Assembly (NCBI GenBank): GCA_029821455.1
Contig: JALGTI010000007.1
Span: 1 to 46,049 of the forward strand
Source of the DNA: Candidatus Zipacnadia bacterium
GTDB lineage: Bacteria; Armatimonadota; Zipacnadia; Zipacnadales; Zipacnadaceae
Reading direction: 5' to 3'
DNA length: 46,049 nucleotides
Shown here: piece by piece, positions 27,068-46,049 of the stretch
Numbering within the stretch: the first letter of the stretch is position 1
Layout: each line of letters opens with the position of its first letter
Position numbers and translations under genes: made by a program
Notes under the pieces: generated by a model
The model's database searches: none
Seen by the model: only the letters and a program-made list of their open reading frames with translations
What the model was told of the DNA's origin: nothing

Positions 27068-27281
27068 TGATAGTCACCTTCCAGGCGGTAATCTGTGTGA
27101 GTAGTATAACATACAGAAAGGCTCTTTGTCCGACGAGCTTCAGAATGTCCAATATACACAGGGCCGGTCTGCAAAACAGCGTGAGCCCCGCAGCGCCAGT
27201 GGCTCGTGGCGCCGCGTGGGGAAGCCGCGATTCGGCGTCCGGCGTGAGCTATTACCAAAGATGCGGCGATTGGTTTCCAGA

Positions 27282-27485
27282 TCATCGGGTGGCCCCGGCG
27301 TCGTCCGCCTGCTCCTGATCGGCCGCCAGAAGGGCCGCCGATGCCAGTGTATCCAGCAGCGTGTCGATGCGTATCTGCGTCAATCTCTCCTCGCTGTGGA
27401 GGGCCCGGTGCCAGTGCTGTTTGACGGCATCCTCGGGCGCCATTTCTTTGCCGTCAGTCGTGTCGTGGTCTGGGGTCTCATTCAT
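27282..27485 (-). CDS. Small acidic hypothetical protein (67 aa), translationally coupled to the tyrosine recombinase
   Basis: Its ATG (27483-27485) overlaps the recombinase stop (ATGAATGA arrangement). An aggagg lies about 10 nt upstream. There is no recognisable family. Confidence 0.4.
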   Translation of the reverse strand: MNETPDHDTTDGKEMAPEDAVKQHWHRALHSEERLTQIRIDTLLDTLASAALLAADQEQADDAGATR

Positions 27486-28416: not shown

Positions 28417-28533
28417 GGTCAAATGTCCCCTTTTGTGGAAGATGCGGTATGCAGTGTTGGGAGATTTTAATGAACCCTTTGGGGGACTATATGCTTGACG
28501 TGCGCATAAGTAAGATGGCATGATGGCTAGGGT

Positions 28534-30070: not shown

Positions 30071-30133
30071 ACTGTGTCGTTGCAGTTCTCGCATCAGCGA
30101 TCCGCTTCACAAATCCTCGGCGGAGGACAGTCC

Positions 30134-33100
30134 ATGCAGATACCTGAACAGGGCCAACTTGTGCAGGTGCGACATCGCCACTTCATAGTGGAGGACGTTG
30201 CGCAGCACAAGGATGCCGGCTCTGCAACGCATCTTGTGGCGCTAGAGTGTCTGGATGATGATGCTCTGGGCAACAAGCTACAGGTTATCTGGGAGCGCGA
30301 ACTGAACACACGGGTCCTTGACACCAGTTCTCTACCTGTGCCCAAGGCGTGGGACCCGTCAGATCGCTTTGCTGCTTTCCTACATGCAATCCGGTGGTCC
30401 ACAAGCTCTCTAGTCGAGGGGGCACCCCTGCAGTCGGCATTTCGCGGCGCCATTGAACTTGATGAATACCAGTTGGTTCCCGTCATCCGCGCCCTGAGAA
30501 TGAACCGCGTGAGCCTGCTTCTGGCCGACGATGTCGGCCTCGGCAAGACCATTGAAGCAGCGCTCGTCATGCTGGAGTTGATGGCACGCCAGCGAGTGCG
30601 CCGGGTGATGATCGTCTGTCCGGCTTCCCTGCAGCGTCAGTGGCAGGAGGAAATGCAGACTAAGTTCCATCTGCCTTTCCACATACTTGATGCCAATGCC
30701 ATCCAAATGCTGCGTCGGGAGTTCGGCGTACACGTCAATCCATGGAACAGTTTTCCGCGTCTGATTACTTCCATGGATTTCCTCAAGCAGCAGAACCATC
30801 TGCAGACATTCATGTCATCGCTTTCGCGGCACAGGGCTGCAAGTGTGCTGCGTGACTGGGACTTGCTCATTGTTGACGAGGTCCACAACTGTACACCAGC
30901 CGGGCGCACCGGCGCCCGTGACTCGGATCGGTCACGCATGCTGCGGGACATCTCACCTCACTTCGAGCACAAGCTGTTCCTGACTGCCACACCGCATAAT
31001 GGCTACACCGAAAGCTTCACGGCTTTGCTCGAAATGCTGGATCCCCTCCGTTTCAGCCGCGGGCAGACGGTAAACCAGGACGCCCTGAAGCTAGTGCGCG
31101 TTCGGCGGCTCAAAGACGACATTACCGACAGCCTCGGACGCCGGAGATTCGCGCAACGCCACGTGGACGGGATCTCGGTCAGGCTCTCACCTGTCGAGGA
31201 GCAGATGTGCCAAGACCTCGACGCCTACTGCGAATCGCGCTTGTCCCGTGCCACACGCGATGATCAATTCGCCATACAGTTTGCCCTGACGATGTTGAAG
31301 AAACGCTTCCTCTCGTCACCGGAGGCTTTCTGGCTTTCACTGCAAACCCACACGAAAAGCGCCCAGGCTGATGATCGTGCTCCCGACCCCGAACTGACAA
31401 AACGCCTGTCCGAGCGCTCACAGGAAGATTGGGACGATGACGACGAGAAGGCCAGGATCGAGGAGGTCGCGTTGGAAGAGGCGTCCCAATTCTTCGCAGG
31501 TCTGACGCCCGATGAACGCAGCATGCTTGACCGGCTGATGCGATCTGCCGCAGAAGTGCGCGAGGGCGCGGACACCAAGGCGACATGTCTCATCAACTGG
31601 ATCCAAGAGCATCTGCAAGCCGATGGGGAATGGAACAACGAACGCCTCATCGTCTTTACTGAGTACCGTGATACACTGCGGCATCTGTATGACCTGTTCT
31701 CTGACGCAGGCTGGCAGGATCATGTCATGACTCTCACAGGGGGCATGCCGCAGCAAGAGCGAGAGCGGGTGAAGAGTGCTTTCCAGGCCGCACCGTCAAG
31801 TGATAGTCCGGTGCGCATTCTGCTGGGTACGGATGCCGCATCCGAGGGCCTTAACCTCCAGAACCACTGCCGTTATGTCATTCACCATGAGATTCCCTGG
31901 AACCCGAATCGGATGGAGCAGCGCAACGGACGCATTGACCGCCACGGGCAGAAAGCGCCGGACGTGTACTGCTCGCATTTCCACTATGAGAACAACGCCG
32001 ACCAGCGGTTCCTGGAAATCGTTGTTGAAAAGGTACGTACGCAGCGGGCCGACCTGGGGGCCGTCGGTGACATAATATCCGCGCAGGTTGAGGAAGCGAT
32101 TCTCGGTCTCCGAGACGAGATAGATGATCGCTACGAAGAGGTCCAACGACAAAGGTCCGACCTCCGTGCCGACAGTTGGGACGCCGACGACGCCAGGCAG
32201 ACGAAGGAACAACTGGTTGCTGCGCGCCGGGAGATGAACCTTTATCCGCAGACCATGGCTCAACTTCTCAGTCAAGCCCTTGCGCTCGCAGGCCGTCACG
32301 GTCTGGAGCAGCTCCAGGACGGCGAGCTGGTAGGAGTGGCATGGGATTTGCGAGAATTGCCGGCATCCTGGGCCGACTGTCGCCCGTCTCTGTACGATGA
32401 AAAGGGCGCCCGTTTGCGGCTCGTCTTCGACCCTGACGTTGCGAAGGACCGCACTGACGTCGCTCTGATCCACCTCGGCCATCCGCTCATGAAGCGTGCT
32501 ATTGCGACATTCAGGCACTTCTTGTGGGAGCAGATGCAGAGCACGGGGCCCACAGTACATCGCTGCAGCTATAGAGTGCTCCCGCACGCCGAATTGCACC
32601 GCCCGGCAATTGTCGTATTCGCCCGCACTGTAGCCATATCCAACTCCGGCGAGAAGATCCACGAGGCCTTGCTGCATGTTGGCGGTTGGATTGACGGCCA
32701 GCAGATTAAGCCCATTGATGCCAACTTGCTCGACCAGTCCATCAATGCAGAGTACTCCTATCCCTCGATCCCCGCGTCGCTTGGCGATGAGTTGCGCAAC
32801 CTCTTCCCTCATCACAGGAAGAAGCTGGAGGAGATGCTCAGTGAGATAGAGGAGACCGAGACTGGCCGCCTCGCAGAAATCCTGAAGCAGAAGGCAGACG
32901 CAGAGGTTGCCAACGTGCGCGACCTGATAGATGAGCGCATACGCGAGATCCAAGAGCGTCTCAAGCAAGCCGAGAAACGTCGCGAAGAAGCGCAGATGCG
33001 GCTCTTTGATCCCGATGTGGTCGAAGAGCACGAGCAGAGCATTCGCTGGTACAATCAGCGGCTGGACCAACTTGAGACTGATCGCAGGGAACGTCCAGCG

Positions 33101-33202
33101 GCGGTCCGCGAGCAATTCAGTCTCAAGCAGCTCCGCGTTTTCCCCATCGGCATGTTGTACCTGCTGCCCGATTCGCTGGTGGCCGAGAGGGGTGAGCAAT
33201 GA
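30134..33202 (+). CDS. drmD: SNF2-family helicase, DISARM DrmD-like
   Basis: ATG at 30134, 6 nt after ggagga. Motifs seen: LLADDVGLGKT, LLIVDEVHN, LFLTATPHNG, and LLGTDAASEGLNLQ...WNPNRMEQRNGRIDRHGQ. There is a long C-terminal coiled-coil extension. Its stop overlaps the next start (ATGA). Confidence 0.9.
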   Translation: MQIPEQGQLVQVRHRHFIVEDVAQHKDAGSATHLVALECLDDDALGNKLQVIWERELNTRVLDTSSLPVPKAWDPSDRFAAFLHAIRWSTSSLVEGAPLQSAFRGAIELDEYQLVPVIRALRMNRVSLLLADDVGLGKTIEAALVMLELMARQRVRRVMIVCPASLQRQWQEEMQTKFHLPFHILDANAIQMLRREFGVHVNPWNSFPRLITSMDFLKQQNHLQTFMSSLSRHRAASVLRDWDLLIVDEVHNCTPAGRTGARDSDRSRMLRDISPHFEHKLFLTATPHNGYTESFTALLEMLDPLRFSRGQTVNQDALKLVRVRRLKDDITDSLGRRRFAQRHVDGISVRLSPVEEQMCQDLDAYCESRLSRATRDDQFAIQFALTMLKKRFLSSPEAFWLSLQTHTKSAQADDRAPDPELTKRLSERSQEDWDDDDEKARIEEVALEEASQFFAGLTPDERSMLDRLMRSAAEVREGADTKATCLINWIQEHLQADGEWNNERLIVFTEYRDTLRHLYDLFSDAGWQDHVMTLTGGMPQQERERVKSAFQAAPSSDSPVRILLGTDAASEGLNLQNHCRYVIHHEIPWNPNRMEQRNGRIDRHGQKAPDVYCSHFHYENNADQRFLEIVVEKVRTQRADLGAVGDIISAQVEEAILGLRDEIDDRYEEVQRQRSDLRADSWDADDARQTKEQLVAARREMNLYPQTMAQLLSQALALAGRHGLEQLQDGELVGVAWDLRELPASWADCRPSLYDEKGARLRLVFDPDVAKDRTDVALIHLGHPLMKRAIATFRHFLWEQMQSTGPTVHRCSYRVLPHAELHRPAIVVFARTVAISNSGEKIHEALLHVGGWIDGQQIKPIDANLLDQSINAEYSYPSIPASLGDELRNLFPHHRKKLEEMLSEIEETETGRLAEILKQKADAEVANVRDLIDERIREIQERLKQAEKRREEAQMRLFDPDVVEEHEQSIRWYNQRLDQLETDRRERPAAVREQFSLKQLRVFPIGMLYLLPDSLVAERGEQ

Positions 33203-36200
33203 TGCGCCGCGAACCGACAGCCGGCAACCACGACTGGCTCTCGCTCGTCCGGACTTCCGGGCTGGTCGTGTCACTTCCCGTGCTCAACGCAGCGTTGCCT
33301 GAGGGGCCGGAGCCGGTTGACGATCGCATGCAGCGCAAGTTCGACCGTGCATGGCAGCGTTTCAACGTCGGACTGGAGCGACAGCGGTCTGACGCCCAGT
33401 CACGGTGGCTTGATTTCATCCTCGACGAGCTGCTGGGCCTGCAAGGCCGTTGGATCAGGCAGCATGATGTCCCCGAAAGCGCCACGCACATGCTCATCGA
33501 TTACCAGCAGGTGCTTCGGCCTCAGCGTATGCTTGTGGACGATAACGGCGACGCCCTACTCCTCGTAAGCATAGTGCCGCCGCACCAGAAGCTTGATGCC
33601 AAGGAGACCCACACCGGCACCTGGCGCGCCAGCCCGTTCCACAAGCTCGACCGCCTCCTGGGCGAGACGGGCGTCCGGTTCGGACTGCTCACCAATGGCC
33701 ACGAGTTCCGGCTGGTGCTCGCGCCTCCCGGACTGGGCGCCGCATACATCTCCTGGCAGGCCAGGGACTGGGCAGACGAAAAGATCCAGCTCGATAGCTT
33801 CCATGCGCTCCTCCATGCTGAGCGCTTCTACGGCGATGAAAAGAAGCGCCTGCAGAAGTTGGTCGAGGACAGCCAGGATAAGCAACTCGAACTCACCGAC
33901 CAGCTCGGCGACCAGGTCCGCCAGGCGCTCGAAGTCTTCCTCCGCGCAGTGGATCACTATGACCGCGAGCACGGCGGCGAAATCCTGCGCGGGATGGAGC
34001 ACCAGAACGCCTACGAGATGTGCCTTTTCACAATGATGCGCCTCGTCTTCATGCTGTACGCCGAAGAGAACTACCTGCTTCCCCACGGCGAGGTGCTATA
34101 TGACCAGGCCTACGGCGTGACACACCTGTGGAAGCAACTGTCCGACCAGCGCCGCGAAGCGCCAGAGGCCTTGGCGCACACCTTCGACGCCTATCCGCAG
34201 TTGCTTGCCACCTTTCGGCTCATACACCAGGGCTGCATCCATCCCGATCTCAACCTGCTCCCCTACGGCGGACATCTCTTCAACCCGGAGCGCTTTCCCG
34301 CTCTCGAGGACTCCCGCCTGCTCATTAACAACCAGGTGATGTATCTCGTGCTTCAGAAGCTGCTGTTCGCCCAGGCGCGCACTGCCGGCCGCACCGAGAT
34401 GCACCGGCTCAGCTACAGCGCACTCGACATCGAGCAGATCGGCACCGTCTATGAGGGCCTCCTCGGCTACACGGTCAGGCGCATTCCTGCCGACGAGACG
34501 AGCGTCGTTTTCCAGGGCAAGCACGACTCCATGCGGCCGCTTGATGAATTGGAAAGCCAGACGCCGGATGATCTGCCCGACTACATCCGCCAGCAGACCG
34601 GCTGGACGGAGAAGCAAGCTGAGAAGGCGCTGGAGCGGCTCGAACAGGAATCATCTGAGGTGCCGCCTCCGCCGCCCGGCATTGACAGCGATCTCTACCA
34701 GCGGCTGCTGAAGTTCCGCAGCTTCCTGAAGCTGGACGAGACCATCCCCGGTGGGCATCTGTATGTAGCTCACGAGTCCGGTCTGCGCAAGGGCCAGGGC
34801 GTCTATTACACGCCCAAGTGGATTACCTCCTGCATCGTCGAGCGCACACTGGAGCCGCTGGTGTATCAGCCAAGCGAGGGAACGCAGGGCGATCTCAAGT
34901 CCCCACGCGAGATCCTTGACCTCAAGGTCTGCGATCCCGCCATGGGCTCAGGCGCCTTCCTGGTGCAGGCCTGCCGCTACCTGGCCGACAAGCTCGTGGA
35001 AAGCTGGGATCGCCTAGCTGCAGAAAACCCGGAAAGCAAAGTCACGCTGCCCTACGGGGAACTCTCGCAGGACGAACCTGGCGAAATCATCTTGCCGGAG
35101 CACCATGAGGAAGCCGTCGTCTGGGCCCGCCGCTTCGTCGCCGAGCACTGCCTCTATGGTGTGGACATCAACCCCCTGGCCGTCGAGCTTGCCAAAATGT
35201 CGCTGTGGCTCATCACCCTTGCTAAGGACAGGCCCTTTGAGTTCCTCGACCACAAGCTGCGGCCCGGCGATTCGCTCATCGGGTGCCGAGGGGACGAACT
35301 TGGTGACTACCCCGTCAAGGCGTGGGGTAGAAAGGTCGAGGGGGACAAGCAAACTCAGGACGCCATCAAAGAACTCGCCAAAGTTGCCCGGCAGCAGGCC
35401 AAACGGCGGCGCAGTGAACGAGACACGGGAGTGCTTACACTCCTCGATGAAAAGCTGCAGCAGAAGCTGGCTGAGACCGCCGAAGAGCTGAGACGGATCG
35501 AGGATATGGACACCCTCGACCCCGGGGCCAAGGAAGCGGCATTCATCCGGCTTATCGAAGAAGATGAGGACTGGCAGCACTTGAAGCAAGCGTTCGATGC
35601 CTGGTGTGCGCTGTGGTTCTGGCCCGTGGGCGGCGAAACGCAGGCCGAAGACGTGCCCATGCCCCGCGACTATCCGGAGCTCCTCGAATACCTCCTAGGC
35701 GAAGACAGCGGCATGAGGACACTGCCCGAAGAACGCCTCGCGCGCTGGGCCGACCAGATCGAGACGCTCTGGAGAAAGCACCACTTCTTCCACTGGGAAC
35801 TTGAATTCCCAGACGCCTGCGCCGGCGAGGACCCCGGCTTCGATGCCATGGTCATGAACCCGCCGTGGGAGCGGATCAAGCTGCAGGAGAATGAGTTCTT
35901 CGCCGTCCGTGACCCCGACATAGCAGGGGCACCCAACGCGGCGGCACGCAAGAAGCTCATCGCTGCTCTTCCGGACACAAAGCCGTGGCTGCATGACGCA
36001 CATCTGGACGCCAAGGGTAGGGCCGACTTCACCAGCCATTTCATCAGGGAATCCGGCCACTTCCCGCTCAGCGCGGTCGGAGACATCAACACATACCCCA
36101 TATTCGCCGAACACGCCCGCAGCAGCATCAATACGCTAGGCGGCGTCGGCATGGTGATCCCCAGCGGCATCGCCACCGACTACTACACACAGGACTTCTT

Positions 36201-37527
36201 TGCCGACCTGATGGAAACCGGCACGCTCAGGGCCCTGTACGACTTTGAAAACCGGGAGCGCGCCTTCCCTGACCTTGACGCACGAACGAAGTTCACACTC
36301 CTGTTTCTGGCTCACGGGGCACCAGTGACGGATTTTGCCTTTTTCTTGACACGTCGACAGGACCTCGGAGACGAAGCGAGGCATGTGGCCCTTAGCGATG
36401 AAGACATCGCTCTCCTCAACCCAAACACGCGAACCTGCCCGATCTTCCGCAGCAAACGCGACGCACAACTGACCAAGCGGATCTACCGCCGTCACCCCGT
36501 GCTCATCCGCGAAATCTACGACGACGATGGCAACAAGGTCGGCGAGGAGAACCCCTGGGGTATCACGTTCGCCACCATGTTCCACATGACCAACGATTCG
36601 GATCTCTTCCGCCCGCGCGAGGAGCTGGAGTCCGACGGCTTCACCCTCCGCCAACCCGGCAACCACTTCGTCAAAGGCGAGGACGTGTGGCTGCCCCTCT
36701 ATGAGGGACGAATGCTCTGGCTCTTCGATCACAGGTACGTCTCCATGCAGGTAGCGGACGGCAGGACCTACCGTACAGCCGATTCGGCCCCGACGCGCCA
36801 AGCAGAGCACTGTAGCTCCTGCCATTCAGCGCTTCCTCGGTACTGGGTAGCTGAGGCCGAGTATCGTGCCGCGTTGCCCAGTATCGACGTACGGCCGTGG
36901 CATTTTGCGTTCAGGGATGTCACGAACCCTGTTACGGAACGCACTGTAGTAGGTGCGGTTATCCCCGCGATGCCAGCAGGAAACAAAGCTCCCTTCATCC
37001 TCTTCGGCGTTCGTCCCAGAATCGCGACGCTCCTCGTGGCGAACATCCTTTCGTTTCCGTTCGACTACTGCGCACGGCAGAAGTTGAGCTACTTGGGCCT
37101 CAACTTCTTCATCATGAAGCAGTTACCCGTGCTGCGACCGGACGAGTATGACCATGACCACCTGGACCACATAGCCGACCGCGTCCTGGAACTCACCTAC
37201 ACCGCGTGGGACATCAAGGCCTTCGCGGGGGACCTGGGCTATGACGGGCCGCCGTTTGTCTGGGATGAGGAGCGCCGCGCCCAACTCCGTGCCCAGCTTG
37301 ACGCGCTCTATTTCCACCTGTATGGTATTGAAAGAGACGATGTGGACCACATCATGGAGACCTTCCCGATAGTCAAGCGCAAGGACATCGCGGCCCACGG
37401 CCATTACCACACCAAAGACCTGATCCTGAGCTACTACGACGACCAGGCCGCCGGCGACTTCACCACCTGGCACGGCCCGGAGGAACTCAAAGAGCCAATG
37501 ATTCACCCGGACGACAGCAGGCCATAA
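33199..37527 (+). CDS. drmMI: Very large (1442 aa) gamma-class N6-adenine DNA methyltransferase, Eco57I/PglX-like, DISARM DrmMI-like
   Basis: Motifs seen: GVYYTPKWI, motif I DPAMGSGAFL (nt 34933 on), HCLYGVDINPLAVELAKMSLWL, and motif IV NPPW (35857-35868). There are long unassigned N- and C-terminal regions, and I saw no nuclease motif. Confidence 0.9.
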   Translation: MMRREPTAGNHDWLSLVRTSGLVVSLPVLNAALPEGPEPVDDRMQRKFDRAWQRFNVGLERQRSDAQSRWLDFILDELLGLQGRWIRQHDVPESATHMLIDYQQVLRPQRMLVDDNGDALLLVSIVPPHQKLDAKETHTGTWRASPFHKLDRLLGETGVRFGLLTNGHEFRLVLAPPGLGAAYISWQARDWADEKIQLDSFHALLHAERFYGDEKKRLQKLVEDSQDKQLELTDQLGDQVRQALEVFLRAVDHYDREHGGEILRGMEHQNAYEMCLFTMMRLVFMLYAEENYLLPHGEVLYDQAYGVTHLWKQLSDQRREAPEALAHTFDAYPQLLATFRLIHQGCIHPDLNLLPYGGHLFNPERFPALEDSRLLINNQVMYLVLQKLLFAQARTAGRTEMHRLSYSALDIEQIGTVYEGLLGYTVRRIPADETSVVFQGKHDSMRPLDELESQTPDDLPDYIRQQTGWTEKQAEKALERLEQESSEVPPPPPGIDSDLYQRLLKFRSFLKLDETIPGGHLYVAHESGLRKGQGVYYTPKWITSCIVERTLEPLVYQPSEGTQGDLKSPREILDLKVCDPAMGSGAFLVQACRYLADKLVESWDRLAAENPESKVTLPYGELSQDEPGEIILPEHHEEAVVWARRFVAEHCLYGVDINPLAVELAKMSLWLITLAKDRPFEFLDHKLRPGDSLIGCRGDELGDYPVKAWGRKVEGDKQTQDAIKELAKVARQQAKRRRSERDTGVLTLLDEKLQQKLAETAEELRRIEDMDTLDPGAKEAAFIRLIEEDEDWQHLKQAFDAWCALWFWPVGGETQAEDVPMPRDYPELLEYLLGEDSGMRTLPEERLARWADQIETLWRKHHFFHWELEFPDACAGEDPGFDAMVMNPPWERIKLQENEFFAVRDPDIAGAPNAAARKKLIAALPDTKPWLHDAHLDAKGRADFTSHFIRESGHFPLSAVGDINTYPIFAEHARSSINTLGGVGMVIPSGIATDYYTQDFFADLMETGTLRALYDFENRERAFPDLDARTKFTLLFLAHGAPVTDFAFFLTRRQDLGDEARHVALSDEDIALLNPNTRTCPIFRSKRDAQLTKRIYRRHPVLIREIYDDDGNKVGEENPWGITFATMFHMTNDSDLFRPREELESDGFTLRQPGNHFVKGEDVWLPLYEGRMLWLFDHRYVSMQVADGRTYRTADSAPTRQAEHCSSCHSALPRYWVAEAEYRAALPSIDVRPWHFAFRDVTNPVTERTVVGAVIPAMPAGNKAPFILFGVRPRIATLLVANILSFPFDYCARQKLSYLGLNFFIMKQLPVLRPDEYDHDHLDHIADRVLELTYTAWDIKAFAGDLGYDGPPFVWDEERRAQLRAQLDALYFHLYGIERDDVDHIMETFPIVKRKDIAAHGHYHTKDLILSYYDDQAAGDFTTWHGPEELKEPMIHPDDSRP

Positions 37528-37541: not shown

Positions 37542-38003
37542 ATGCAAATCGTCACGCTCGCATTGCCGATCTTAGTTGGTATTGTGGCGATAGTAGTTGG
37601 CATAATCAAGATTATCGAATTCTGCAGGGACCGAATCCGTATCAATGTCAGCGCCGAGTACATCTGTCTCGGTGAGCCTGCGCCTGCTGCCTCGAGACAG
37701 CTTGTAAGACTTACAGCGGTGAACCAAGGTAAACGGCCCGTTTCTTTGGACAGTGCCTATCTGATCTTCTCCGACGGCGGCAAGCTCTCGTATAAGAAAG
37801 AGCTCACTTATCATTCGAACGACGATCTGCCGTGCTTACTGCAAGACGGGGAGAGTTGTAGTGTCCACATTCCTGCCCAGCAACTCCGTGAGAAAGAGGC
37901 AGGCGGTAGTAAGGCCGTTGCCGTAGCTTTTCGAGACGCGTCCAATAGGGAATATCGGAGCAGTTTTCGGCCTGACGTCGCTTCCGAGAAGACCCAAAGA
38001 TGA
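37542..38003 (+). CDS. Hypothetical membrane-anchored protein (153 aa)
   Basis: ATG lies 14 nt after the methylase stop, behind aaggggga. It has an N-terminal TM helix (IVTLALPILVGIVAIVVGIIKII) and then a small soluble domain. It is visibly more A/T-rich than its neighbours: about 47 % G+C over the first 120 nt by hand count. Confidence 0.65.
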   Translation: MQIVTLALPILVGIVAIVVGIIKIIEFCRDRIRINVSAEYICLGEPAPAASRQLVRLTAVNQGKRPVSLDSAYLIFSDGGKLSYKKELTYHSNDDLPCLLQDGESCSVHIPAQQLREKEAGGSKAVAVAFRDASNREYRSSFRPDVASEKTQR

Positions 38004-38230: not shown

Positions 38231-38240
38231 GAGGCTCAAC

Positions 38241-39326
38241 ATGCGTCGAGATGCTGAAGCAATGAAACAGAAGGCGATTGAGTCGGTGATAGGTGCGGTG
38301 GAGTTCTGCAATAGGCCTCACGACGAGGGGCGCGTCGTCGCGGTATTGTTCTTCTTGCAGCACGCATTCGAAATGCTCCTTAAGGCAGCCATACTGGTGG
38401 ACCGTGGGACGATACGCAAACCCACAGACGATCAGTCCTATGGCTTCGAGAAGTGCTGCAACATAGCAAGGAGCGAATTGAAGATCCTCACGCAAGATCA
38501 GCATCGCACACTATCCACGATAAATGGGCTGCGCGACGCGGCGACACATTACGTGGTCGACATGCCTGAGTCGGCCCTCTATGTGCATGCGCAAGCAGGT
38601 ATGACGATCTTTGATGATCTGCTGGACACGGTGTGTGGGGAGACACTCGCCGATCATCTGCCAGAACGCGTGTTGCCCCTTTCCACTACGCCTCCTCGCG
38701 ACATTGAGCTAATCATGGACGAGGAATTCAGCGAGTTGCAGGCTCTGGTTGCGCCCGGTCGACGACAAGGGCACTTGGCCAAACCACGCATGAGACACCT
38801 ACTGATAATGGAATCCAGCGTGCGAGGTCAACCGCGGCAGCCGACGGACGCTGAGGTGGACAAGACCTTAGGGAAACTTCGCAGCGCGAAGGACTGGCGG
38901 TTGCTCTTCCCGGGAGTCGCGGCCCTGAGGGTAGTGACAGACGGCAACGGGCCGACGATCACTCTGCGCATGGAGAAGCGCGGTGACGTTCCGATGCGGC
39001 CGCTGAGGGAGGGGGAGGATCCCGACAAGGCTCTCGTATATCGTGAGGTCAACATGCTGGACCGCTATTCGATGGGCCTCAGGGATTTGGCCACCAAGCT
39101 CCCCATCACGGAACCCAAGACACTGGCACTGATTCGGCATCTCAAACTGCAAGAGAACCCCGAGTGTTTCACAATAGTCAGAGTTGGCAACAGCGAGCAC
39201 AAACGCTATAGCGAGAACGCACTGCAACTGCTACGCGCAGCGCTCAGAGAAGTCGACATAGACGAAGTATGGAACGAGCATAGACCGCGCAGGACGGGCC
39301 CTACAGAGTCGGGAACCGGCCCGTGA
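38241..39326 (+). CDS. Hypothetical protein with DUF3644-like N-terminal helical domain
   Basis: ATG at 38241 (gagg 6 nt upstream), with ATG 38262 as an alternative. AIESVIGAVEFCNRPHDEGRVVAVLFFLQHAFEMLLKAAIL fits my memory of the DUF3644 pattern (A..AiE.YNkP......f..L..AwElLLKA). Confidence 0.7.
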   Translation: MRRDAEAMKQKAIESVIGAVEFCNRPHDEGRVVAVLFFLQHAFEMLLKAAILVDRGTIRKPTDDQSYGFEKCCNIARSELKILTQDQHRTLSTINGLRDAATHYVVDMPESALYVHAQAGMTIFDDLLDTVCGETLADHLPERVLPLSTTPPRDIELIMDEEFSELQALVAPGRRQGHLAKPRMRHLLIMESSVRGQPRQPTDAEVDKTLGKLRSAKDWRLLFPGVAALRVVTDGNGPTITLRMEKRGDVPMRPLREGEDPDKALVYREVNMLDRYSMGLRDLATKLPITEPKTLALIRHLKLQENPECFTIVRVGNSEHKRYSENALQLLRAALREVDIDEVWNEHRPRRTGPTESGTGP

Positions 39327-39367: not shown

Positions 39368-42300
39368 ATGCCCATGAACCCAATTCAACTCGGCGAGCAG
39401 GTTGTCGAGCACTTCCACCGCTATCTGCGGACCTACTTCCCCATTGCTGACCAGCGGATCGAGAGGCAGGTCAACGCTGCGCTTGCGGCCGGGCCAACCG
39501 GCGAACGCATGTTGGTCAAAGGCCCCTACATCCAACTCAACCGGCCCTTTGAGGAAGGCCCAACGCTTTCGGACTTCATCGAGCAGCACGATCTGCATCC
39601 GGCACTGACGGGCGTGTTCTCGCACATTGAGACTCTGCACAAGCACCAGGAGCTGGCCGCCGCAGCGACGCTCAGGGGGCGTCACACCATTTCGGCCACC
39701 GGCACCGGCTCCGGCAAGACGGAGTCATTCCTGCTGCCAATAGTTGAGCACTGCCTGCGGCTGCGTGACGAGGGCGCACCCGAAGGCGTAACGGCGATAC
39801 TGATCTACCCGATGAACGCGCTGGTGAACGACCAGCTCAAGCGTCTGCGTGAGATGCTGGCGGGCACCGGCATAACATTCGGGCGCTACACAGGAGAGAC
39901 GCCGTATCGGCGGATGGATGATATCCGGCAGCTTGACACGTCCCGCGCGTACAGCCCAGAGGAACTGGCGAGGCAGCGGGAAACGGGGGAGGAACTCCCC
40001 AGACCATATGAGGAGCGCATCAGCCGCGAAGACATAGTGGACGCGCCACCGCGCATCCTCCTGACCAACTACAAGCAGATGGAGTACTTGCTGTCGCGGG
40101 CCCGTGATCTGAAGCTGTTCGACGGCGCTCCGGTACGCTTCCTGGTCATGGACGAAGTACATACGTACACCGGAGAGCTGGGGTCGGAAGTGGCGTGCCT
40201 GGTGCGCCGCCTGCGGTATCTGATCGGGAAATCCCCGGAGGAGCTTCTCTGTATTGGCACCTCCGCGACCGTTGCCGACCCCAGCGGGGAGATAGATGGT
40301 GCAAAGGCCGTCCGCAACTTCGCCCACCGTCTATTCGGCATCCCGGAAGACAGCATCGAGATAGTGGAGGAGCAGTACAAGGAATTACCTCCTGCGCCGA
40401 GGGACACGTACGCCCCGCGGTCGCCCTCGGATGCTCAAGCAATGCTGGATGAGGTCTTGGAAGTGACGCATCCGGTTCACGTACAGGATGAGGTGGAGGA
40501 TATATCGGACGATGTGGTCACCGTGGCCGAAAGCCTGTGCCAGCGCAGGGCGCCTGTGAGCGGCCCGAACCAGGAGCGGCTGTACGAGCTGCTATCGGCT
40601 AACTCGCTGGTACGCCACTTGGAACGGCAACACCAGTCGCCGATGCTGCTGCAAGACACGCTCGAGGGCCTCCGCAAGATCGGCGACCGTGCCGATGTGG
40701 ATCGAGAAGACTTGGCCGCGGAACTGTTGGCGTACTTGACATTGGGCGCACTGGCTCAACGTGAAGATGAGCCACTATTGCGTCCGAAGCTGCACTACTT
40801 CGTCCAGGGCTATCAAGGGATATTCGTGAGCTTTGAGCCGCGAATCAACTCTGATGCTGCAGAAGAACTGGAACCTGTGGTGCACTTCAGGCAGCAGGGC
40901 GGCGAGGAGCGCGGCGACGGCCTGCCCTTGCCGCTCTATCTGTGCCGGGCCTGCGGCCAGCACTACTTCCCCCTGATCGTCAGCGAAGCCGTTTCGGCCG
41001 ACGATGATGGTCAGGGCGCTTGTTATCGACCGGTAGCGCTATGGGACGGGCGCAGTCACATTGATGAAGAGGTCTTGTGGTATCTGACAGACCGTCTGCA
41101 CACTGAAGACGAGGATGAAGCGGACAAGTGGGAACCGCACTATATGTGCCGCTATTGCGGGTCACTGCATGATGCAGACCATGGCCGGTGTTTGAATGAG
41201 AAGTGCCAGCGTCAGGGCCCACTGGTTGCAATGCATGGCTTCCCGGGTGAGCCTAAGACATGCGCCGCATGTGGTGCGGCTAACTGGACCAAGGCCCGTA
41301 CCATCTCCGGTACCCGCAGCGCGGCGGCGGCAGACATCATGATCCTTGCTCAGTCTCTGCTGACCGGCATGCAGGAACCGAGCATGCGGAAACTGCTAAT
41401 CTTCGCCGACAACCGCCAGGAGGCCGCCTTCCAGGCGGGCTTTATGGACAAGCGGTTTAAGCGCATAGCACTGCGACAGTTGTTGTACGACGCATTGGCC
41501 GATGACCCCGATGAGCGATGGATCATAGACGGCCTGACCGACCGCCTGCTACGAGATGCGCAGAGCAAAGGGATCGTCGAGACCCGGTCCGCGTACGAGG
41601 ACCGCAGGGAAGCAAGACGGATTAAGTGGTTCTTGCTCCAGGAGTTCGCGTCTACCCGTGAACGACGTGGATCGCTTGAGACACTGGGACTTGCTGGGAT
41701 TGAATACCGGGGTCTCGAGGTTGACGCCGACCCCAGCTTTTTCGAGCGTTGGGCTGAAGTCTTTGGCGTCGCGCCGCAGGAGCTGGTGGACACCGTAGCT
41801 CTCATCCTGGACTATTATCGGCGACGGGGTACGCTGTCAGATGATTTGATGACGCACTGGTGGGGCTATCAAGACAAAGACGTGCGAGACGGTATCATCC
41901 AGGTCCATGACCACTGGGCGCCAACTACGCTCAATCTGCACAAGCCAGCTGAGGGCAGCATCACCAAGGGGTTGATCGCCAGCAACGGCCGCTCTGCGGC
42001 AGAGATGATAATGGGCAAGGCGGCGCAGAAGAACGCTGATCGAGGCGACCAGTTTCTGGAAGACCTCTGGGACTGGCTCACGGCCGCTGAAAGGCAGCTG
42101 CTCAAGCCGGTGAGGTTGACCAGGAAGAGACACGGCCACGATGAAGAACTGAGGGACATCGCTCGGACTTATCAGGTGAACGTTGACAAAGTGGCGCTTC
42201 ACCGTTCAGACCATCGGCACCTGTGTTCCGTGTGTCGCCGCGCACAGGTCAGGCCATTGCCGAGTGGCTTGTGTCCCGAGTATGGGTGTAAGGGCGAAAC

Positions 42301-44599
42301 TGAGGATAGTCCTGTGGACAGCGAGGATTTTGCGGTAGTCCAGTACACACGACTGCCCTTCGTCCCACTAAGGCCGGCTGAGCATACAGCACAGGTACCC
42401 CAGGAAAAGCGCCACGAAATCGAGAGAGAATTCCAACAGACAGATGGGGAATACAACTGCATAGTCTGCACTCCGACTCTGGAATTGGGTGTGGACATCG
42501 GCAAGTTGGAGATGGCCTTGATGCGCAATGTGCCGCCGACGCCAGCAAACTATGCGCAACGGGCTGGCCGGGCGGGACGTAAGCATCGCATCGCGGTGAT
42601 CTTCTCATACTGCGGCGGAAGCTCACATGACCGCTACTTCTTCGATGAGCCGCCTGAGGTCATCAGCGGCTCGATCCGGGTGCCAGCATTCAGCATGCAG
42701 AACTCACCGCTGATACGCAAGCACGTGTATTCCGCACTGCGTACTGAGCTCTTGCGTGACGGTGATGACGCGAGGGTACAGACGGCGATGAACGTGGCAT
42801 TCCCTGACTACATTTGGCGATACTTCGCGGTCAAGACGGAAGATGCCAACGGGGAAGAAATCATCTCATATCTTAGTGAGCCACCGAAGCTCGATGACCT
42901 GGCGATGTTGCTGACAGAGGAGGAAACCAGACTGCAGGCGGTGCTGCAGGAGGCATTCACTGAGAACTGGCCGGCGTCCGACGATGACGCGGTACAGGCT
43001 GACCGTCTTACCGAGCATATGGCTCAAATGCCGCAGAGACTGAGCGCTCATGTTTCCATTCTCTTCAGGAGGGTACGTGCATACCAAGACGAGCTTGACA
43101 GGCTCAGACAAGGGGGGAGCGCCGTACTGACACCCAGCCAGATACGACGCCGGGGCCAGTTCGAAGCATCCATACACAAGCTGTCGAACAAGGGGCGTGA
43201 CAACTACACTCTGACGTACCTGAGCAATGACGGTTTTCTGCCAGGCTATGCTTTGGACAGGGGTTCCTGTACGGCAACTAGCTTGGAGCCATTCATGGAG
43301 GTTTCGCGGTCCCTGCCGGTTGCCTTGCGCGAATTCGCGCCTGCAAGCTGGACATACGCCGACGGAAACGTTTTCCGGATAGTCAGGATCGTCTTTCAGA
43401 ATCCCAGACATGCTGTCGGTGATCAGATCGCCGGCGCGGCAAGACGCCAAGTGTGCATCCAGACTGACAGTGGTCGTCTGTTCGCTCCCGACACGTCAGC
43501 GACCGAGGGTGGGGCGTCGCTGCAAACACTCGATTCCCTGCTTCTAGCTGGCGTCAATCTGGTAGCGGCACAGCCAATAGACGATCTCCGCGAGACGAGG
43601 ATACGGGTGGGCTATGACATCAGGGGCATGATGCTGGGTGAACATGCAGGCGGCTGGCGGGGTAGCATAGCAGACAGGAGTATTGACTACCTGCGCCTGC
43701 AACGCCTCCGACTAGTCAACCTGGGACCTTTGGGCGAGCCGGCTCAGGATCCTGATGGGGGTTTCGTGATATGCCCGGTCTGTGGTGCCGTGAGATCGCC
43801 ATTCGCCGACAGAGATGAGATTGATGACTTCGAGACCAAGCACAAGCAGAGCTGCGCTGCTGACATGTTGAAGGGGTTCTGCTTGCACGTTGATTTCGTT
43901 TCCGATGTGATATTGCTCAAGCCCTTCGATTCTGAGCCTGCAGCCATAAACGCAATGACCGGCCTATTGGCAGGTGTGTCACAGGTGCTGGATATGGGGG
44001 AGAGCGAGCTGGAGGGTCTGATTCTGCCAGAAGACGGGGACACTTGGAGCATACTCATTTACGACCCCACTCCTGGCGGCTCGGGCTTCCTGGCACAGAT
44101 GTGCGACCATTGGCGGATCATATGCGAACGCGGCATCGAGCTGATAAGCAGTTGCGACAACTGTGGCGAAGACGAAGCCTGCTATGGCTGTCTCAAGCAT
44201 TATCGTAATCAGCAGCACCACGAGCAGCTAAGCAGGGCCATCGCCTGCCATGTGCTTGAGGAACTTGCCACTGACATCCAACACGAGCATGATGTTCCTC
44301 CGAGGTTGCCTGAGGGCAGCGACGCTGCGGAGGAACCGGAAAGCGGCGCTGAAGAGCTTCTCGAACGGATACTGGAGGAGCGCTCCTTCCCCTTGCCACC
44401 TCAGCGTCAATTGCGTGTAGACCTCGGTGCCACATACACAGTGGCAGACTTCGCCTATCCTGAATACAACGTATTGGTATACGTGGACGGCCTGTCGGTT
44501 CATAATCCCGACCTGGACGCCATCACGACGGCCAAACTGCGGCACGAAGGCTATCAAGTGGTCAGCTCAGGGATCCAGGCCTGCTGCCAGTGTTTCTGA
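39368..44599 (+). CDS. drmA-drmB: Fusion protein: DExH helicase (DrmA-like) + DUF1998 zinc domain (DrmB-like) + C-terminal DUF559/Vsr-like nuclease-fold domain
   Basis: Helicase motifs are ATGTGSGKTESF, FLVMDEVHTY, CTPTLELGVDIG and YAQRAGRAGRK. Several Zn-ribbon-like CxxC pairs lie between the RecA lobes. The DUF1998-like part contains LSNDGFLPGYALD, REFAPASWTYADGNVF and CDNCGEDEACYGCLKHYRNQ. The tail is ELLERILEERSFPLPPQRQLRVDLGATYTVADFAYPEYNVLVYVDGLSVH...KLRHEGYQVV. Confidence 0.9.
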   Translation: MPMNPIQLGEQVVEHFHRYLRTYFPIADQRIERQVNAALAAGPTGERMLVKGPYIQLNRPFEEGPTLSDFIEQHDLHPALTGVFSHIETLHKHQELAAAATLRGRHTISATGTGSGKTESFLLPIVEHCLRLRDEGAPEGVTAILIYPMNALVNDQLKRLREMLAGTGITFGRYTGETPYRRMDDIRQLDTSRAYSPEELARQRETGEELPRPYEERISREDIVDAPPRILLTNYKQMEYLLSRARDLKLFDGAPVRFLVMDEVHTYTGELGSEVACLVRRLRYLIGKSPEELLCIGTSATVADPSGEIDGAKAVRNFAHRLFGIPEDSIEIVEEQYKELPPAPRDTYAPRSPSDAQAMLDEVLEVTHPVHVQDEVEDISDDVVTVAESLCQRRAPVSGPNQERLYELLSANSLVRHLERQHQSPMLLQDTLEGLRKIGDRADVDREDLAAELLAYLTLGALAQREDEPLLRPKLHYFVQGYQGIFVSFEPRINSDAAEELEPVVHFRQQGGEERGDGLPLPLYLCRACGQHYFPLIVSEAVSADDDGQGACYRPVALWDGRSHIDEEVLWYLTDRLHTEDEDEADKWEPHYMCRYCGSLHDADHGRCLNEKCQRQGPLVAMHGFPGEPKTCAACGAANWTKARTISGTRSAAAADIMILAQSLLTGMQEPSMRKLLIFADNRQEAAFQAGFMDKRFKRIALRQLLYDALADDPDERWIIDGLTDRLLRDAQSKGIVETRSAYEDRREARRIKWFLLQEFASTRERRGSLETLGLAGIEYRGLEVDADPSFFERWAEVFGVAPQELVDTVALILDYYRRRGTLSDDLMTHWWGYQDKDVRDGIIQVHDHWAPTTLNLHKPAEGSITKGLIASNGRSAAEMIMGKAAQKNADRGDQFLEDLWDWLTAAERQLLKPVRLTRKRHGHDEELRDIARTYQVNVDKVALHRSDHRHLCSVCRRAQVRPLPSGLCPEYGCKGETEDSPVDSEDFAVVQYTRLPFVPLRPAEHTAQVPQEKRHEIEREFQQTDGEYNCIVCTPTLELGVDIGKLEMALMRNVPPTPANYAQRAGRAGRKHRIAVIFSYCGGSSHDRYFFDEPPEVISGSIRVPAFSMQNSPLIRKHVYSALRTELLRDGDDARVQTAMNVAFPDYIWRYFAVKTEDANGEEIISYLSEPPKLDDLAMLLTEEETRLQAVLQEAFTENWPASDDDAVQADRLTEHMAQMPQRLSAHVSILFRRVRAYQDELDRLRQGGSAVLTPSQIRRRGQFEASIHKLSNKGRDNYTLTYLSNDGFLPGYALDRGSCTATSLEPFMEVSRSLPVALREFAPASWTYADGNVFRIVRIVFQNPRHAVGDQIAGAARRQVCIQTDSGRLFAPDTSATEGGASLQTLDSLLLAGVNLVAAQPIDDLRETRIRVGYDIRGMMLGEHAGGWRGSIADRSIDYLRLQRLRLVNLGPLGEPAQDPDGGFVICPVCGAVRSPFADRDEIDDFETKHKQSCAADMLKGFCLHVDFVSDVILLKPFDSEPAAINAMTGLLAGVSQVLDMGESELEGLILPEDGDTWSILIYDPTPGGSGFLAQMCDHWRIICERGIELISSCDNCGEDEACYGCLKHYRNQQHHEQLSRAIACHVLEELATDIQHEHDVPPRLPEGSDAAEEPESGAEELLERILEERSFPLPPQRQLRVDLGATYTVADFAYPEYNVLVYVDGLSVHNPDLDAITTAKLRHEGYQVVSSGIQACCQCF

Positions 44600-45002
44600 A
44601 TGAGCTGGCGGTGTACCTCGGACGCGAAGAGCTATTGAGCGGCGGCTAGCCGGTGAGGTAGGTCTATCGATCTTGTGCTGCGAGCGCCCTGGACCCAGCC
44701 GATTGCCCGTCAGATTATTGACACGGACAGCACCGGTCACCAGTTCATGACTGGCGGACTAACTTCGTCCCTCAGGGCCTGCGGCACGTCGTCCTCCTGA
44801 CGGAACAGGCCCAGCAGGCGGGACAGCCCGGTGGCAATGTCTGGTTCAAGGGGATGCTCCTGCTACAGCAAAAGGAATCTGCGCACCCAACGCCGAACTC
44901 CGATAGCAGGTAGCTGGTCGTTCAGCAGCAAACACCAGAGCGCCCGTTTGATATGGGCAATCCCAATCAAGAGCCCAGAGGAAGAAGCCCAGGAGGAGCA
45001 AC

Positions 45003-46048: not shown

Positions 46049-46049
46049 C

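What the first reader, a model, noticed from the sequence alone, without database searches (positions are those of the whole stretch)
44351..44599. DUF559/Vsr-like nuclease-fold domain appended to the DrmA-DrmB fusion, in place of a PLD DrmC
The last ~80 residues read ELLERILEERSFPLPPQRQLRVDLGATYTVADFAYPEYNVLVYVDGLSVHNPDLDAITTAKLRHEGYQVVSS. This follows the DUF559 pattern (E..f...L...glP.P..Q..v......DFawPe..l.vEvDG..H....D.....L...Gw.V). No PLD-motif (HxKxxxxD) gene is present in the operon.

Two oddities stand out. The acidic residue usually seen in the E-V-D-G stretch is Tyr here (Y-V-D-G). The domain also stops about 12 residues after GYQVV, shorter than usual.

A covalently attached PD-(D/E)xK-type effector would be a distinct solution for DISARM-like systems. 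Alternatively the domain is degenerate and serves only as a DNA-binding module.
Basis: partly seen in the sequence, partly recalled or inferred. Interest (0 to 1): 0.65.

Follow-up and report, generated by a model that had tools for sequence, protein, structure and literature searches.

The report
Vsr nuclease tail of ARMADA helicase
The stretch encodes the Vsr-type DNA-cutting domain at the end of the large helicase ArmC of an ARMADA Type I anti-phage system, an arrangement already published in 2025; the only thing special here is a 16-base deletion that breaks the end of the domain.

Summary
The quoted sequence is really there. It is the C-terminal domain of a 1743-aa helicase (39368-44599). 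Alone it matches Pfam DUF559 only weakly (E 0.046, below cut-off). With 30 homologs the assignment is firm: a profile finds the Vsr-like nucleases I-Bth0305I (E 3.4e-4) and DUF559 3hrl, and AlphaFold models match I-Bth0305I, PvuRts1I, AbaSI, 3hrl and Vsr.

The host protein is not a DrmA-DrmB fusion of DISARM. It is ArmC, the YprA-family helicase of ARMADA Type I (Bell et al. 2025). That paper describes a C-terminal "predicted active Vsr-type nuclease" in place of a PLD gene. Its Table S1 lists my closest homolog (58% identity) as "ARMADA Type I helicase".

Both oddities dissolve:
- Y-V-D-G: Tyr or Phe at this position is family-wide and corresponds to Vsr Phe62. All five Vsr active-site equivalents are kept.
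- Short tail: it is caused by a 16-nt deletion at 44565|44566. The conserved terminal helix continues in the -1 frame to TAG 44647-44649.

No PLD gene lies in this locus or in 13 related loci. The verdict is a known kind of system and a new member of it, possibly with a crippled nuclease. Interest is low.

The parts
30074..33202 (+). ArmA: SNF2/RapA-like helicase, called DrmD by NCBIfam and PADLOC.
   Evidence: NF038317 DISARM_DrmD scores 1009 bits (cut-off 610). PADLOC DrmD scores 1051 bits over the full length. It is 28% identical to E. coli ArmA. The GLGKT and DEVH motifs are intact.
33199..37527 (+). ArmB: PglX/DrmMI-like N6-adenine DNA methyltransferase.
   Evidence: PADLOC DrmMI scores 773 bits. 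Pfam finds Eco57I, N6_Mtase and MmeI domains. The NPPW and GSGAF motifs are present.
37542..38003 (+). ORF153: a small protein with an N-terminal hydrophobic helix. It is an accessory gene in the ArmB-ArmC slot.
   Evidence: Translation. No significant family hit.
38241..39326 (+). DUF3644 / PADLOC candidate PDC-S19 gene, accessory. The ORF is open from 38031; the likely start is the ATG at 38241.
   Evidence: Pfam DUF3644 E=2.2e-13. PADLOC PDC-S19 scores 431 bits, matching from residue 71 of the ORF. A homolog lies in the same slot in L010.
39368..44599 (+). ArmC as encoded: YprA-family DEAD/DEAH helicase with zinc modules, OB-CON-DUF1998 and a Vsr domain (1743 aa).
   Evidence: Pfam finds DEAD, Helicase_C and MZB. 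PADLOC DruE E=1e-113. It is 58% identical and collinear with L001. L001's contig is listed as 'ARMADA Type I helicase' in Bell et al. Table S1. GSGKT, DEVH, SAT and several CxxC motifs are present.
43964..44194 (+). MZB/DUF1998 zinc-binding domain, residues 1533-1609.
   Evidence: Pfam PF09369 E=7.4e-11. The cysteines are invariant in alignment A1.
44336..44565 (+). Vsr-type nuclease domain, the in-frame part (residues 1657-1733). It contains E1662, D1694, Y1705, D1707, H1712 and D1717.
   Evidence: All six family-invariant residues (E, D, D-G, H, D) are kept. The near-invariant G after H is missing, and the near-invariant R is T1721 here.
44565..44566 (+). Junction of a 16-nt deletion (5 codons plus 1 nt) relative to homologs. 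It removes the second half of the last beta strand and shifts the frame.
   Evidence: The nucleotide alignment with L001, L002, L005 and L009 shows one clean 16-nt gap.
44566..44649 (+). Out-of-frame (-1) remainder of the domain: the conserved C-terminal helix LRDPGLLPVFLNELAVYLGREELLSGG and the ancestral stop TAG at 44647-44649.
   Evidence: Translation. By my count on the aligned tails it is about 52-63% identical to L001 and P0009.
44566..44599 (+). The 10 residues actually encoded after the deletion (SGIQACCQCF) and the stop. They are unrelated to any homolog.
25052..28521 (-). Large serine recombinase (25052-27067) and tyrosine integrase (27478-28521) beside the island.
   Evidence: Pfam finds Resolvase, Recombinase and Zn_ribbon_recom in the first, and Phage_integrase in the second. 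Homologs of both lie beside the L001 island.

Best explanation
Positions 44351-44599 encode most of the Vsr-type (PD-(D/E)xK superfamily) nuclease domain that ends ArmC. ArmC is the YprA-family helicase of an ARMADA Type I anti-phage system. The system here comprises ArmA (SNF2 helicase, 30074-33202), ArmB (PglX-like adenine methylase, 33199-37527), two accessory genes, and ArmC (39368 to about 44649).

Shown here:
- The fold assignment.
- Conservation of the fused domain in all full-length homologs.
- Retention of the residues equivalent to Vsr E25, D51, H64, H69 and D97.
- Absence of any PLD gene.
- Membership of the published ARMADA Type I clade.

Inferred mechanism, by analogy with DISARM DrmAB, Druantia DruE and E. 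coli ARMADA II genetics. ArmB methylates host DNA. ArmC loads on unmethylated foreign DNA at single-strand/duplex junctions and translocates with ATP. Its tethered Vsr domain then nicks or cuts the DNA using Mg2+ bound by the Asp residues, with His as general base. This takes the role that the separate PLD nuclease DrmC has in DISARM.

Specific to this window. A 16-nt deletion at 44565|44566 removes half of the last beta strand and puts the terminal helix out of frame. As written, the nuclease is probably misfolded or weakened. Alternatively, the deletion is an assembly error.
For: - Fold. The intact homolog matches 3r3p with probability 1.00, TM 0.79 and rmsd 2.9. It also matches 3hrl (probability 0.97) and 1vsr (probability 0.96).
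- Family: 18 database homologs and 13 genome loci, about ten of which carry full-length helicases of 1760-1864 aa, 43-58% identical. Every homolog whose tail is read through has an intact tail; the L010 and P0014 tails are broken.
- Invariant residues: E, D, D-G, H and D are invariant across the family, two distant loci and E. coli ArmC. All are present in the window.
- Residue mapping to Vsr: from PMC3239194 and PMC4081097.
- ARMADA identity: Bell et al. 2025 describe the ArmA/ArmB/ArmC architecture with a 'predicted active Vsr-type nuclease'. Their Table S1 lists DASXVN010000046.1 (my L001) and T. thermophilus AP025604.1 (my L020) as ARMADA Type I helicases.
- PADLOC: best hit DruE rather than DrmA, as expected for ArmC.
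- Deletion. All other catalytic motifs of the system are intact.
- No PLD in the window or in related loci.
Against: - The window's own tail does not reach the Pfam DUF559 threshold.
- hhalign against the E. coli ArmC Vsr domain is weak (E=0.018, probability 2.6%), although the motifs align.
- Foldseek E-values are modest (1e-3 to 6e-2).
- In the two ARMADA papers read here I found no assay or mutation of the Vsr domain, so 'active nuclease' is a prediction.
- The window copy lacks the near-invariant Arg (T1721) and the Gly after His, has shorter loops, and lacks the C-terminal helix in frame. Catalysis in this particular protein is therefore doubtful.
- The deletion could not be checked against reads.
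Confidence: 0.88

Rival explanations
1. The 16-nt gap is an assembly or sequencing artefact. The organism's real ArmC has an intact Vsr domain of normal length ending at 44649 plus 16 nt. On this reading nothing is unusual in this locus.
For: The out-of-frame segment is still about 52-63% identical to homologs (my count) and ends at the homologous stop. This is expected if there is no real frameshift, or only a very recent one. All other genes and motifs of the system are intact. The sequence looks like a metagenome-type lineage: the nearest relatives are MAGs.
Against: A clean 16-nt deletion is not a typical base-calling error. The same tail carries three further in-frame length differences that cannot be errors. 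No reads or second assembly were available to decide.
Confidence: 0.35
2. The deletion is real, and this copy of the Vsr domain is inactive or unstable. The locus is then either a decaying ARMADA system, or one that works without its own nuclease, with the tail at most a DNA-binding remnant.
For: The 16-nt deletion removes core beta-strand residues and the terminal helix. The near-invariant Arg and Gly are lost. There is precedent: Druantia I/II helicases carry inactivated Vsr domains (Bell et al.). ArmC remnants and truncations are seen elsewhere, in L004, L010 and P0014.
Against: All five catalytic equivalents are retained. Divergence of the tail from homologs (about 54%) is no greater than that of the whole protein (58%), so there is no sign of long relaxed selection. 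The rest of the operon is intact.
Confidence: 0.5
3. This is a class 1 DISARM system in which DrmA and DrmB have fused and acquired a DUF559 nuclease instead of DrmC.
For: The SNF2 helicase passes the NCBIfam DISARM_DrmD equivalog cut-off and the methylase matches DrmMI. The helicase has DEAD, Helicase_C and DUF1998 domains, as DrmA plus DrmB do.
Against: The helicase scores 24 bits on NCBIfam DrmA (cut-off 999). On PADLOC it scores 60 bits on DrmA against 380 on DruE. Its closest homolog is classified as ARMADA Type I by the authors of that system. In their tree ARMADA helicases are closer to Druantia than to DISARM.
Confidence: 0.05
4. The tail is an independently inserted selfish DUF559/EDxHD homing-endonuclease-like element, not part of the helicase.
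For: The best structural and profile match is the homing endonuclease I-Bth0305I.
Against: The domain is in frame after the DUF1998 module, joined by a conserved linker. It is present at the same place in all full-length homologs across several phyla. No intron or intein features are present, and the domain lacks the EDxHD acidic residue.
Confidence: 0.01

Closest known systems
ARMADA Type I (ArmA-ArmB-ArmC), Bell et al. 2025, bioRxiv 10.1101/2025.09.15.676423 (PMC12458937)
   Same: The three core genes are the same: an SNF2/BrxHII-RapA-like helicase, a PglX-like methylase, and a YprA-like helicase with zinc modules, OB-CON-DUF1998 and a single C-terminal Vsr-type nuclease. There is no PLD gene and no ArmD. 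The closest homolog (L001, 58% identity) and the Thermus plasmid homolog (L020) are listed by the authors as ARMADA Type I helicases. The ArmA-ArmB-then-ArmC order is described for some Type I lineages.
   Different: Two accessory genes (ORF153 and DUF3644/PDC-S19) sit between ArmB and ArmC. The Vsr domain has shorter loops, T in place of the near-invariant R, and a 16-nt frameshifting deletion.
ARMADA Type II of E. coli (ArmABCD; NCTC 12900, ATCC 8739, EDL933), experimentally validated (PMC12458937, PMC13463889)
   Same: The gene order ArmA-ArmB-ArmC is the same. ArmC has a Vsr domain with the same motif pattern (PDY...FLDGFAFH...D..KR). BLASTP of the window's ArmC against E. coli ArmC gives 155+140+37 bits, against 128+121 bits for E. 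coli DruE.
   Different: Type II has ArmD (RelE-GajB-like helicase) and extra inactive EEP and Vsr domains after the active one (ArmC is 2113 aa). The window has neither. Identity is only 23-34%.
DISARM class 1 (DrmD, DrmMI, DrmA, DrmB, DrmC)
   Same: It has DrmD-like and DrmMI-like genes. It has a helicase plus DUF1998 module, which in DrmAB recognises 5' overhangs on unmethylated DNA (PMC9142583).
   Different: In DISARM the helicase and DUF1998 are separate proteins and the nuclease is a separate PLD protein (DrmC). Here they are one polypeptide with a Vsr nuclease, and the helicase is of the ArmC/DruE lineage.
Druantia DruE
   Same: DruE gives the best PADLOC hits (1e-113). It has the same YprA core with inserted domains and a C-terminal nuclease. 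DruE type III is a helicase-coupled nuclease acting on forked or 5'-overhang DNA (10.64898/2026.05.13.724313).
   Different: DruE III uses PLD-like nuclease domains and partners with DruH. DruE I/II have inactivated Vsr domains. Druantia has no SNF2 helicase or methylase partners.
Vsr endonuclease, the DUF559 family (3hrl) and the EDxHD homing endonuclease I-Bth0305I (3r3p)
   Same: The predicted fold is the same. There are equivalents of Vsr E25, D51, H64, H69 and D97. An aromatic residue sits at the Vsr Phe62 position, as in Vsr.
   Different: The domain lacks Vsr's zinc site and its intercalating FWH wedge. It lacks the extra acidic residue of DUF559/EDxHD (E-x-D-G). It is a domain of a 1750-aa helicase, not a stand-alone repair or homing enzyme.

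Membership tests
ARMADA Type I | YprA-family helicase (DEAD/Helicase_C core plus the 4-Cys DUF1998/MZB domain in one polypeptide) of the ArmC clade. | tested here: met
   Pfam finds DEAD, Helicase_C and MZB. The protein is 58% identical and collinear over 1-1731 with the helicase on DASXVN010000046.1. That record is listed as 'ARMADA Type I helicase' in Bell et al. Table S1. No formal phylogeny was run.
ARMADA Type I | C-terminal Vsr-type nuclease domain on ArmC. | tested here: met
   Profile and fold matches to 3r3p, 3hrl, 1vsr, AbaSI and PvuRts1I. The catalytic equivalents are kept. The domain is damaged at its 3' end by a 16-nt deletion.
ARMADA Type I | Adjacent BrxHII/RapA-like SNF2 helicase (ArmA) and PglX-like methyltransferase (ArmB). 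| tested here: met
   for the window. The same partners lie next to the helicase in L001, L003, L007, L008, L010, L011 and L013.
ARMADA Type I | Inserted BrxA-like, beta-barrel zinc-module and MarR-like domains in the helicase. | not tested
   Only CxxC motifs at residues 526, 594, 632 and 953 were seen in the expected region. No full-length structure was predicted.
ARMADA Type II | ArmD (RelE-GajB/UvrD-like helicase) immediately after ArmC, and extra EEP/Vsr domains on ArmC. | tested here: not met
   ArmC ends after one Vsr domain. The next ORF (45003-45719) has no helicase or other family hit. The window ends at 46049, so only the immediate neighbour was seen.
DISARM class 1 | DrmD SNF2 helicase and DrmMI methylase. 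| tested here: met
   NF038317 scores 1009 bits (cut-off 610). PADLOC DrmMI scores 773 bits.
DISARM class 1 | DrmA-type helicase, with DrmB (DUF1998) as a separate protein. | tested here: not met
   NF038326 DrmA scores 24 bits against a cut-off of 999. PADLOC DrmA scores 60 bits against 380 for DruE. DUF1998 is fused to the helicase.
DISARM class 1 | PLD-family nuclease DrmC. | tested here: not met
   No PLD hit or true HxKxxxxD motif in the window or in 13 related loci.
Vsr-like nuclease fold (Pfam clan with Vsr, DUF559, MTES_1575) | Alpha/beta fold with a central mixed sheet, and structural similarity to Vsr, DUF559 and I-Bth0305I. | tested here: met
   AF2 pLDDT is 80 and 85. Foldseek gives 3r3p (probability 1.00, TM 0.79), 3hrl (0.97) and 1vsr (0.96).
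Vsr-like nuclease fold (Pfam clan with Vsr, DUF559, MTES_1575) | Active-site residues equivalent to Vsr E25, D51, H64, H69 and D97. | tested here: met
   E1662, D1694, D1707, H1712 and D1717 are invariant in alignment A4. The correspondence is taken from the I-Bth0305I/Vsr superposition in PMC3239194 together with the HMM alignment to 3r3p. It was not checked by residue-level superposition here.
Pfam DUF559 (PF04480) | Score above the gathering threshold, and the E-x-D-G acidic residue. | tested here: not met
   The window tail scores 14 bits against 20.6. Y or F replaces E throughout the family. The domain is Vsr-type rather than DUF559 proper.
Nuclease activity | Mg2+-dependent DNA cleavage by the domain. 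| not testable with these tools
   In the ARMADA papers read I found no mutation or assay of the Vsr domain.

The most novel reading that the evidence does not exclude
The 16-nt deletion is real and the locus still defends. That would make it an ARMADA Type I variant whose own Vsr nuclease is dispensable, with cleavage or another effector function supplied by the accessory genes in the ArmB-ArmC slot (DUF3644/PDC-S19 and the membrane-anchored ORF153). More generally, that slot would be a hot spot where ARMADA recruits alternative effectors: DUF3644, Schlafen/AlbA_2-HATPase proteins and NYN.
Probability: 0.08. Interest if true: 0.45.

Novelty: new member of a known kind. Interest (0 to 1): 0.18.

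Why it matters
It matters little as a discovery. A Vsr-type nuclease fused to the YprA helicase in place of a PLD gene is the published hallmark of ARMADA (2025-2026).

The case is useful as annotation guidance. PADLOC 2.0 and NCBIfam call such loci DrmD/DrmMI plus DruE-like, which invites the 'odd DISARM' reading. The Pfam DUF559 model misses the domain.

Three points could be of modest interest to people working on ARMADA:
- The locus adds an Armatimonadota-like Type I member with accessory genes in the ArmB-ArmC slot.
- It is a natural lesion in the nuclease tail.
- In the papers read here I found no experimental test of the ArmC nuclease.

Tried and rejected
- Own-sequence Pfam and NCBIfam scans of the tail gave only a sub-threshold DUF559 hit.
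It worked with 9 closer sequences.
- Checking the deletion against reads failed. No public run holds the sequence (word share at most 0.09), and the exact protein is not on record.
It worked with A2 and A5.
- hhalign of the family profile against the E. coli ArmC Vsr domain aligned the motifs, but with E=0.018 and probability 2.6%. I use it only as an illustration.
- The PLD motif regex gave only two chance strings.
- Programmed -1 frameshifting as a rescue is rejected. I see no slippery heptamer around 44555-44575 (sequence). Five core residues would still be missing even after a shift.
- Homing-endonuclease insertion is rejected: the domain is in frame and conserved in all homologs.
- I asked whether the only other DUF3644-bearing locus (L010) also has a broken Vsr domain. 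It does break inside the DG..H loop, but 160 nt from a contig end and into AT-rich unrelated DNA. A chimeric contig end cannot be excluded, so no conclusion is drawn.
- The tRNA scan found no tRNA genes and the promoter/terminator scan nothing informative. The composition profile showed nothing notable.


Full report
OBSERVATION. Position 44351 is the codon of E1662. Pfam finds DEAD (residues 92-186), Helicase_C (1004-1072) and the MrfA zinc-binding/DUF1998 domain (1533-1609), and nothing for the tail at default thresholds. Scanned alone, the tail gives DUF559 at E=0.046 and 14 bits, below the 20.6-bit cut-off. From the window's sequence alone the resemblance is therefore suggestive, not significant.

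THE SHORT TAIL IS A FRAMESHIFT.
- The -1 frame after about 44565 reads ...LRDPGLLPVFLNELAVYLGREELLSGG* and stops at TAG 44647-44649.
- A search with the C-terminal 298 residues, with this frame joined on, found 18 homologs. The alignment shows that this out-of-frame peptide is the conserved end of the family, for example P0009 ...LTDPTSVAVFLNELAVYLGRTDLLVDRP.
- A nucleotide alignment with four homologous loci shows one clean 16-nt gap in the window between 44565 and 44566. This amounts to five codons plus one base. It removes the second half of the last beta strand (homologs read G-Y-x-V-V-E-I-T-A-E-A-L-x-D) and shifts the frame.
- By my count the displaced segment is still about 52-63% identical to homologs and ends at the homologous stop. 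The lesion is therefore either very recent or an assembly error.
- I could not decide between these. No public run contains the sequence and the exact protein is not on record.
- The tail also has three in-frame length differences from its closest relatives: S--VH, H-NP and a shorter H...D loop. The DG-to-H spacing is variable across ArmC proteins, and the window's spacing equals that of Vsr, E. coli ArmC, L012 and L013. The near-invariant Gly after His is missing, and the near-invariant Arg is T1721 here.

FOLD.
- Of the 18 homologous tails, 9 hit Pfam DUF559 (best E 5.9e-5) and 9 hit REase_MTES_1575.
- I built a 20-sequence profile from the family, two distant loci and the E. coli ArmC Vsr domain. 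It finds PDB 3r3p, the I-Bth0305I catalytic domain and a Vsr homolog, at E=3.4e-4. It finds 3hrl (DUF559) at E=0.011 over its full length. Vsr itself comes at E=0.1-0.28.
- The AlphaFold2 model of the window's repaired tail has pLDDT 80.3 and pTM 0.74. The model of an intact homolog has pLDDT 85.0 and pTM 0.78. Both show the same helix, three strands, helix, strand, helix order.
- Foldseek against the PDB gives, for the intact homolog: 3r3p (E 1.1e-3, probability 1.00, TM 0.79 on the target, rmsd 2.9), PvuRts1I, 3hrl (probability 0.97), 1vsr (0.96), AbaSI and 1cw0.
- For the window's tail it gives mitoribosomal proteins of T. gondii, 3r3p (TM 0.63/0.67), AbaSI and PvuRts1I, all at probability 0.95-0.99. 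The mitoribosomal proteins are RAP-domain, Vsr-like by my own knowledge; I did not test this.

ACTIVE SITE AND THE TYR.
- Across all aligned sequences six residues are invariant: E (E1662), D of A-D-F (D1694), D-G (D1707, G1708), H (H1712) and D (D1717). All are present in the window.
- The I-Bth0305I paper superimposes E170, D196, N208, H213 and D222 on Vsr E25, D51, H64, H69 and D97. It states that the extra conserved acidic residue of the EDxHD/DUF559 lineage sits at the position of Vsr Phe62 (PMC3239194). The AbaSI paper gives the roles of Vsr D51, T63 and H69 (PMC4081097).
- Via the HMM alignment to 3r3p, the window's Y1705 is at the Phe62 position. Every homolog has Y or F there, including E. 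coli ArmC (FLDGFAFH) and Thermus ArmC (VFVDGPAH).
- The Tyr is therefore a Vsr-like family trait, not a sign of decay.

WHAT THE PROTEIN AND THE OPERON ARE.
- PADLOC scores the helicase best on DruE models (1e-113, 380 bits). DrmA models give only 60 bits over the Helicase_C region. NCBIfam DrmA gives 24 bits against a cut-off of 999.
- Upstream lie an SNF2 helicase that passes the NCBIfam DrmD equivalog (1009 bits) and a DrmMI/PglX-like methylase. Between them and the helicase sit a small membrane-anchored ORF153 and a DUF3644/PDC-S19 gene.
- A scan of one genome per species found 13 related loci, mostly MAGs of Armatimonadota, Anaerolineae and Myxococcota. About ten of them carry full-length helicases of 1760-1864 aa that are 43-58% identical and collinear to the end of the tail.
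- DrmD-like and/or DrmMI-like genes are adjacent in seven of these loci, in either order.
- No PLD gene was found in the window or in these loci.
- This matches the ARMADA systems of Bell et al. 2025 (PMC12458937). These comprise a BrxHII/RapA-like helicase ArmA, a PglX-like methylase ArmB and a YprA-like helicase ArmC. [quoted passage not shown]
- Their Table S1 lists DASXVN010000046.1 (my L001, the closest homolog) and T. thermophilus AP025604.1 (my L020, found by tblastn in plasmids) as 'ARMADA Type I helicase'. [quoted passage not shown] - E. coli EDL933 ARMADA II (L015) gives weaker but consistent BLASTP matches: ArmC 155+140+37 bits against DruE 128+121; ArmA 28% identity; ArmB 23% identity.
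- The window lacks ArmD and the extra EEP and Vsr domains of Type II. It is a Type I member with the ArmA-ArmB-ArmC order that the authors report for some Type I lineages.

MECHANISM. Shown here are the architecture, the conservation of the catalytic equivalents and the absence of a PLD partner. Shown by others:
- E. coli ARMADA II protects directly, without abortive infection. It needs all four genes, the ArmA and ArmC Walker motifs and the ArmB NPPW motif (PMC13463889).
- DrmAB is activated by 5' overhangs on unmethylated DNA (PMC9142583).
- DruE is a helicase-coupled nuclease on forked DNA (10.64898/2026.05.13.724313).

Inferred from these: ArmB marks self DNA. ArmC loads on unmethylated foreign DNA at single-strand/duplex junctions and translocates. 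The tethered Vsr domain then cuts the DNA, with Mg2+ held by the D1694 equivalent and the H1712 equivalent as base. I found no mutation or assay of the ArmC Vsr domain in the papers read.

For this window, all other enzymatic motifs are intact. The 16-nt deletion leaves a domain without half a core strand and without its terminal helix. I judge a real, probably inactivating lesion somewhat more likely (about 0.5-0.65) than an artefact (about 0.35).

CONTEXT. A serine recombinase and a tyrosine integrase lie just upstream (25052-28521). Homologs of both flank the L001 island. This fits the reported carriage of such islands on mobile elements.

VERDICT. The arrangement is the already published ARMADA Type I ArmC. 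Both 'oddities' are explained: an aromatic residue at the Vsr Phe62 position, and a 16-nt deletion. Novelty is that of a new member of a known kind, and interest is low (0.18). The most novel reading still open is a nuclease-independent ARMADA variant that relies on accessory genes. It has low probability (about 0.08).

Noticed in passing
window 37542-39326; L010 1566-4428; L013 3883-5613; L020 3212-3925 and 7943-9090: ARMADA Type I loci have a variable accessory slot next to ArmB. The window carries a membrane-anchored ORF153 and DUF3644/PDC-S19. L010 carries DUF3644 plus a Schlafen AlbA_2/HATPase_c_4 protein. L013 carries the Schlafen-type protein. The Thermus plasmid carries a NYN-domain gene and two small ORFs.
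   Followed up: partly
window 25052-28521 (-); L001 17827-20917 (-): A large serine recombinase with LuxR-type HTH and a tyrosine integrase sit beside the ARMADA island. Homologs of both sit beside the island in the Armatimonadota MAG L001. This suggests a shared mobile element. No tRNA gene was found in the window.
   Followed up: partly
L010 about 9715-9881; L004 7989-10900; P0014 (L016 10001-11146): Other ArmC genes are also damaged. L010 breaks inside the DG..H loop into AT-rich unrelated DNA near the contig end. L004 keeps only the C-terminal 40% next to a DrmD fragment. P0014 is a 381-aa remnant with an out-of-frame tail among unrelated genes.
   Followed up: partly
window 15383-18613 (-): This ORF reads an rve_3 integrase-core segment (residues 8-73) in frame with a family-8 polysaccharide lyase. 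It is probably an over-extended ORF running across an IS remnant.
   Followed up: no
window 45003-45719 (+): This is a 238-aa ORF directly downstream of ArmC. It has no hit in Pfam, PADLOC or NCBIfam. It is not an ArmD-like helicase.
   Followed up: no
window 524-4309 (+): This is a 1261-aa protein combining PQQ-like beta-propellers, a methyltransferase domain and a malectin domain. It is unrelated to the finding.
   Followed up: no
window 30074-33202: Annotation pitfall: NCBIfam's DISARM_DrmD equivalog and PADLOC's DrmD models score this ARMADA ArmA at full length and well above cut-off, while PADLOC 2.0 scores ArmC best on DruE. Automated tools would therefore report a partial DISARM plus a stray DruE.
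   Followed up: yes
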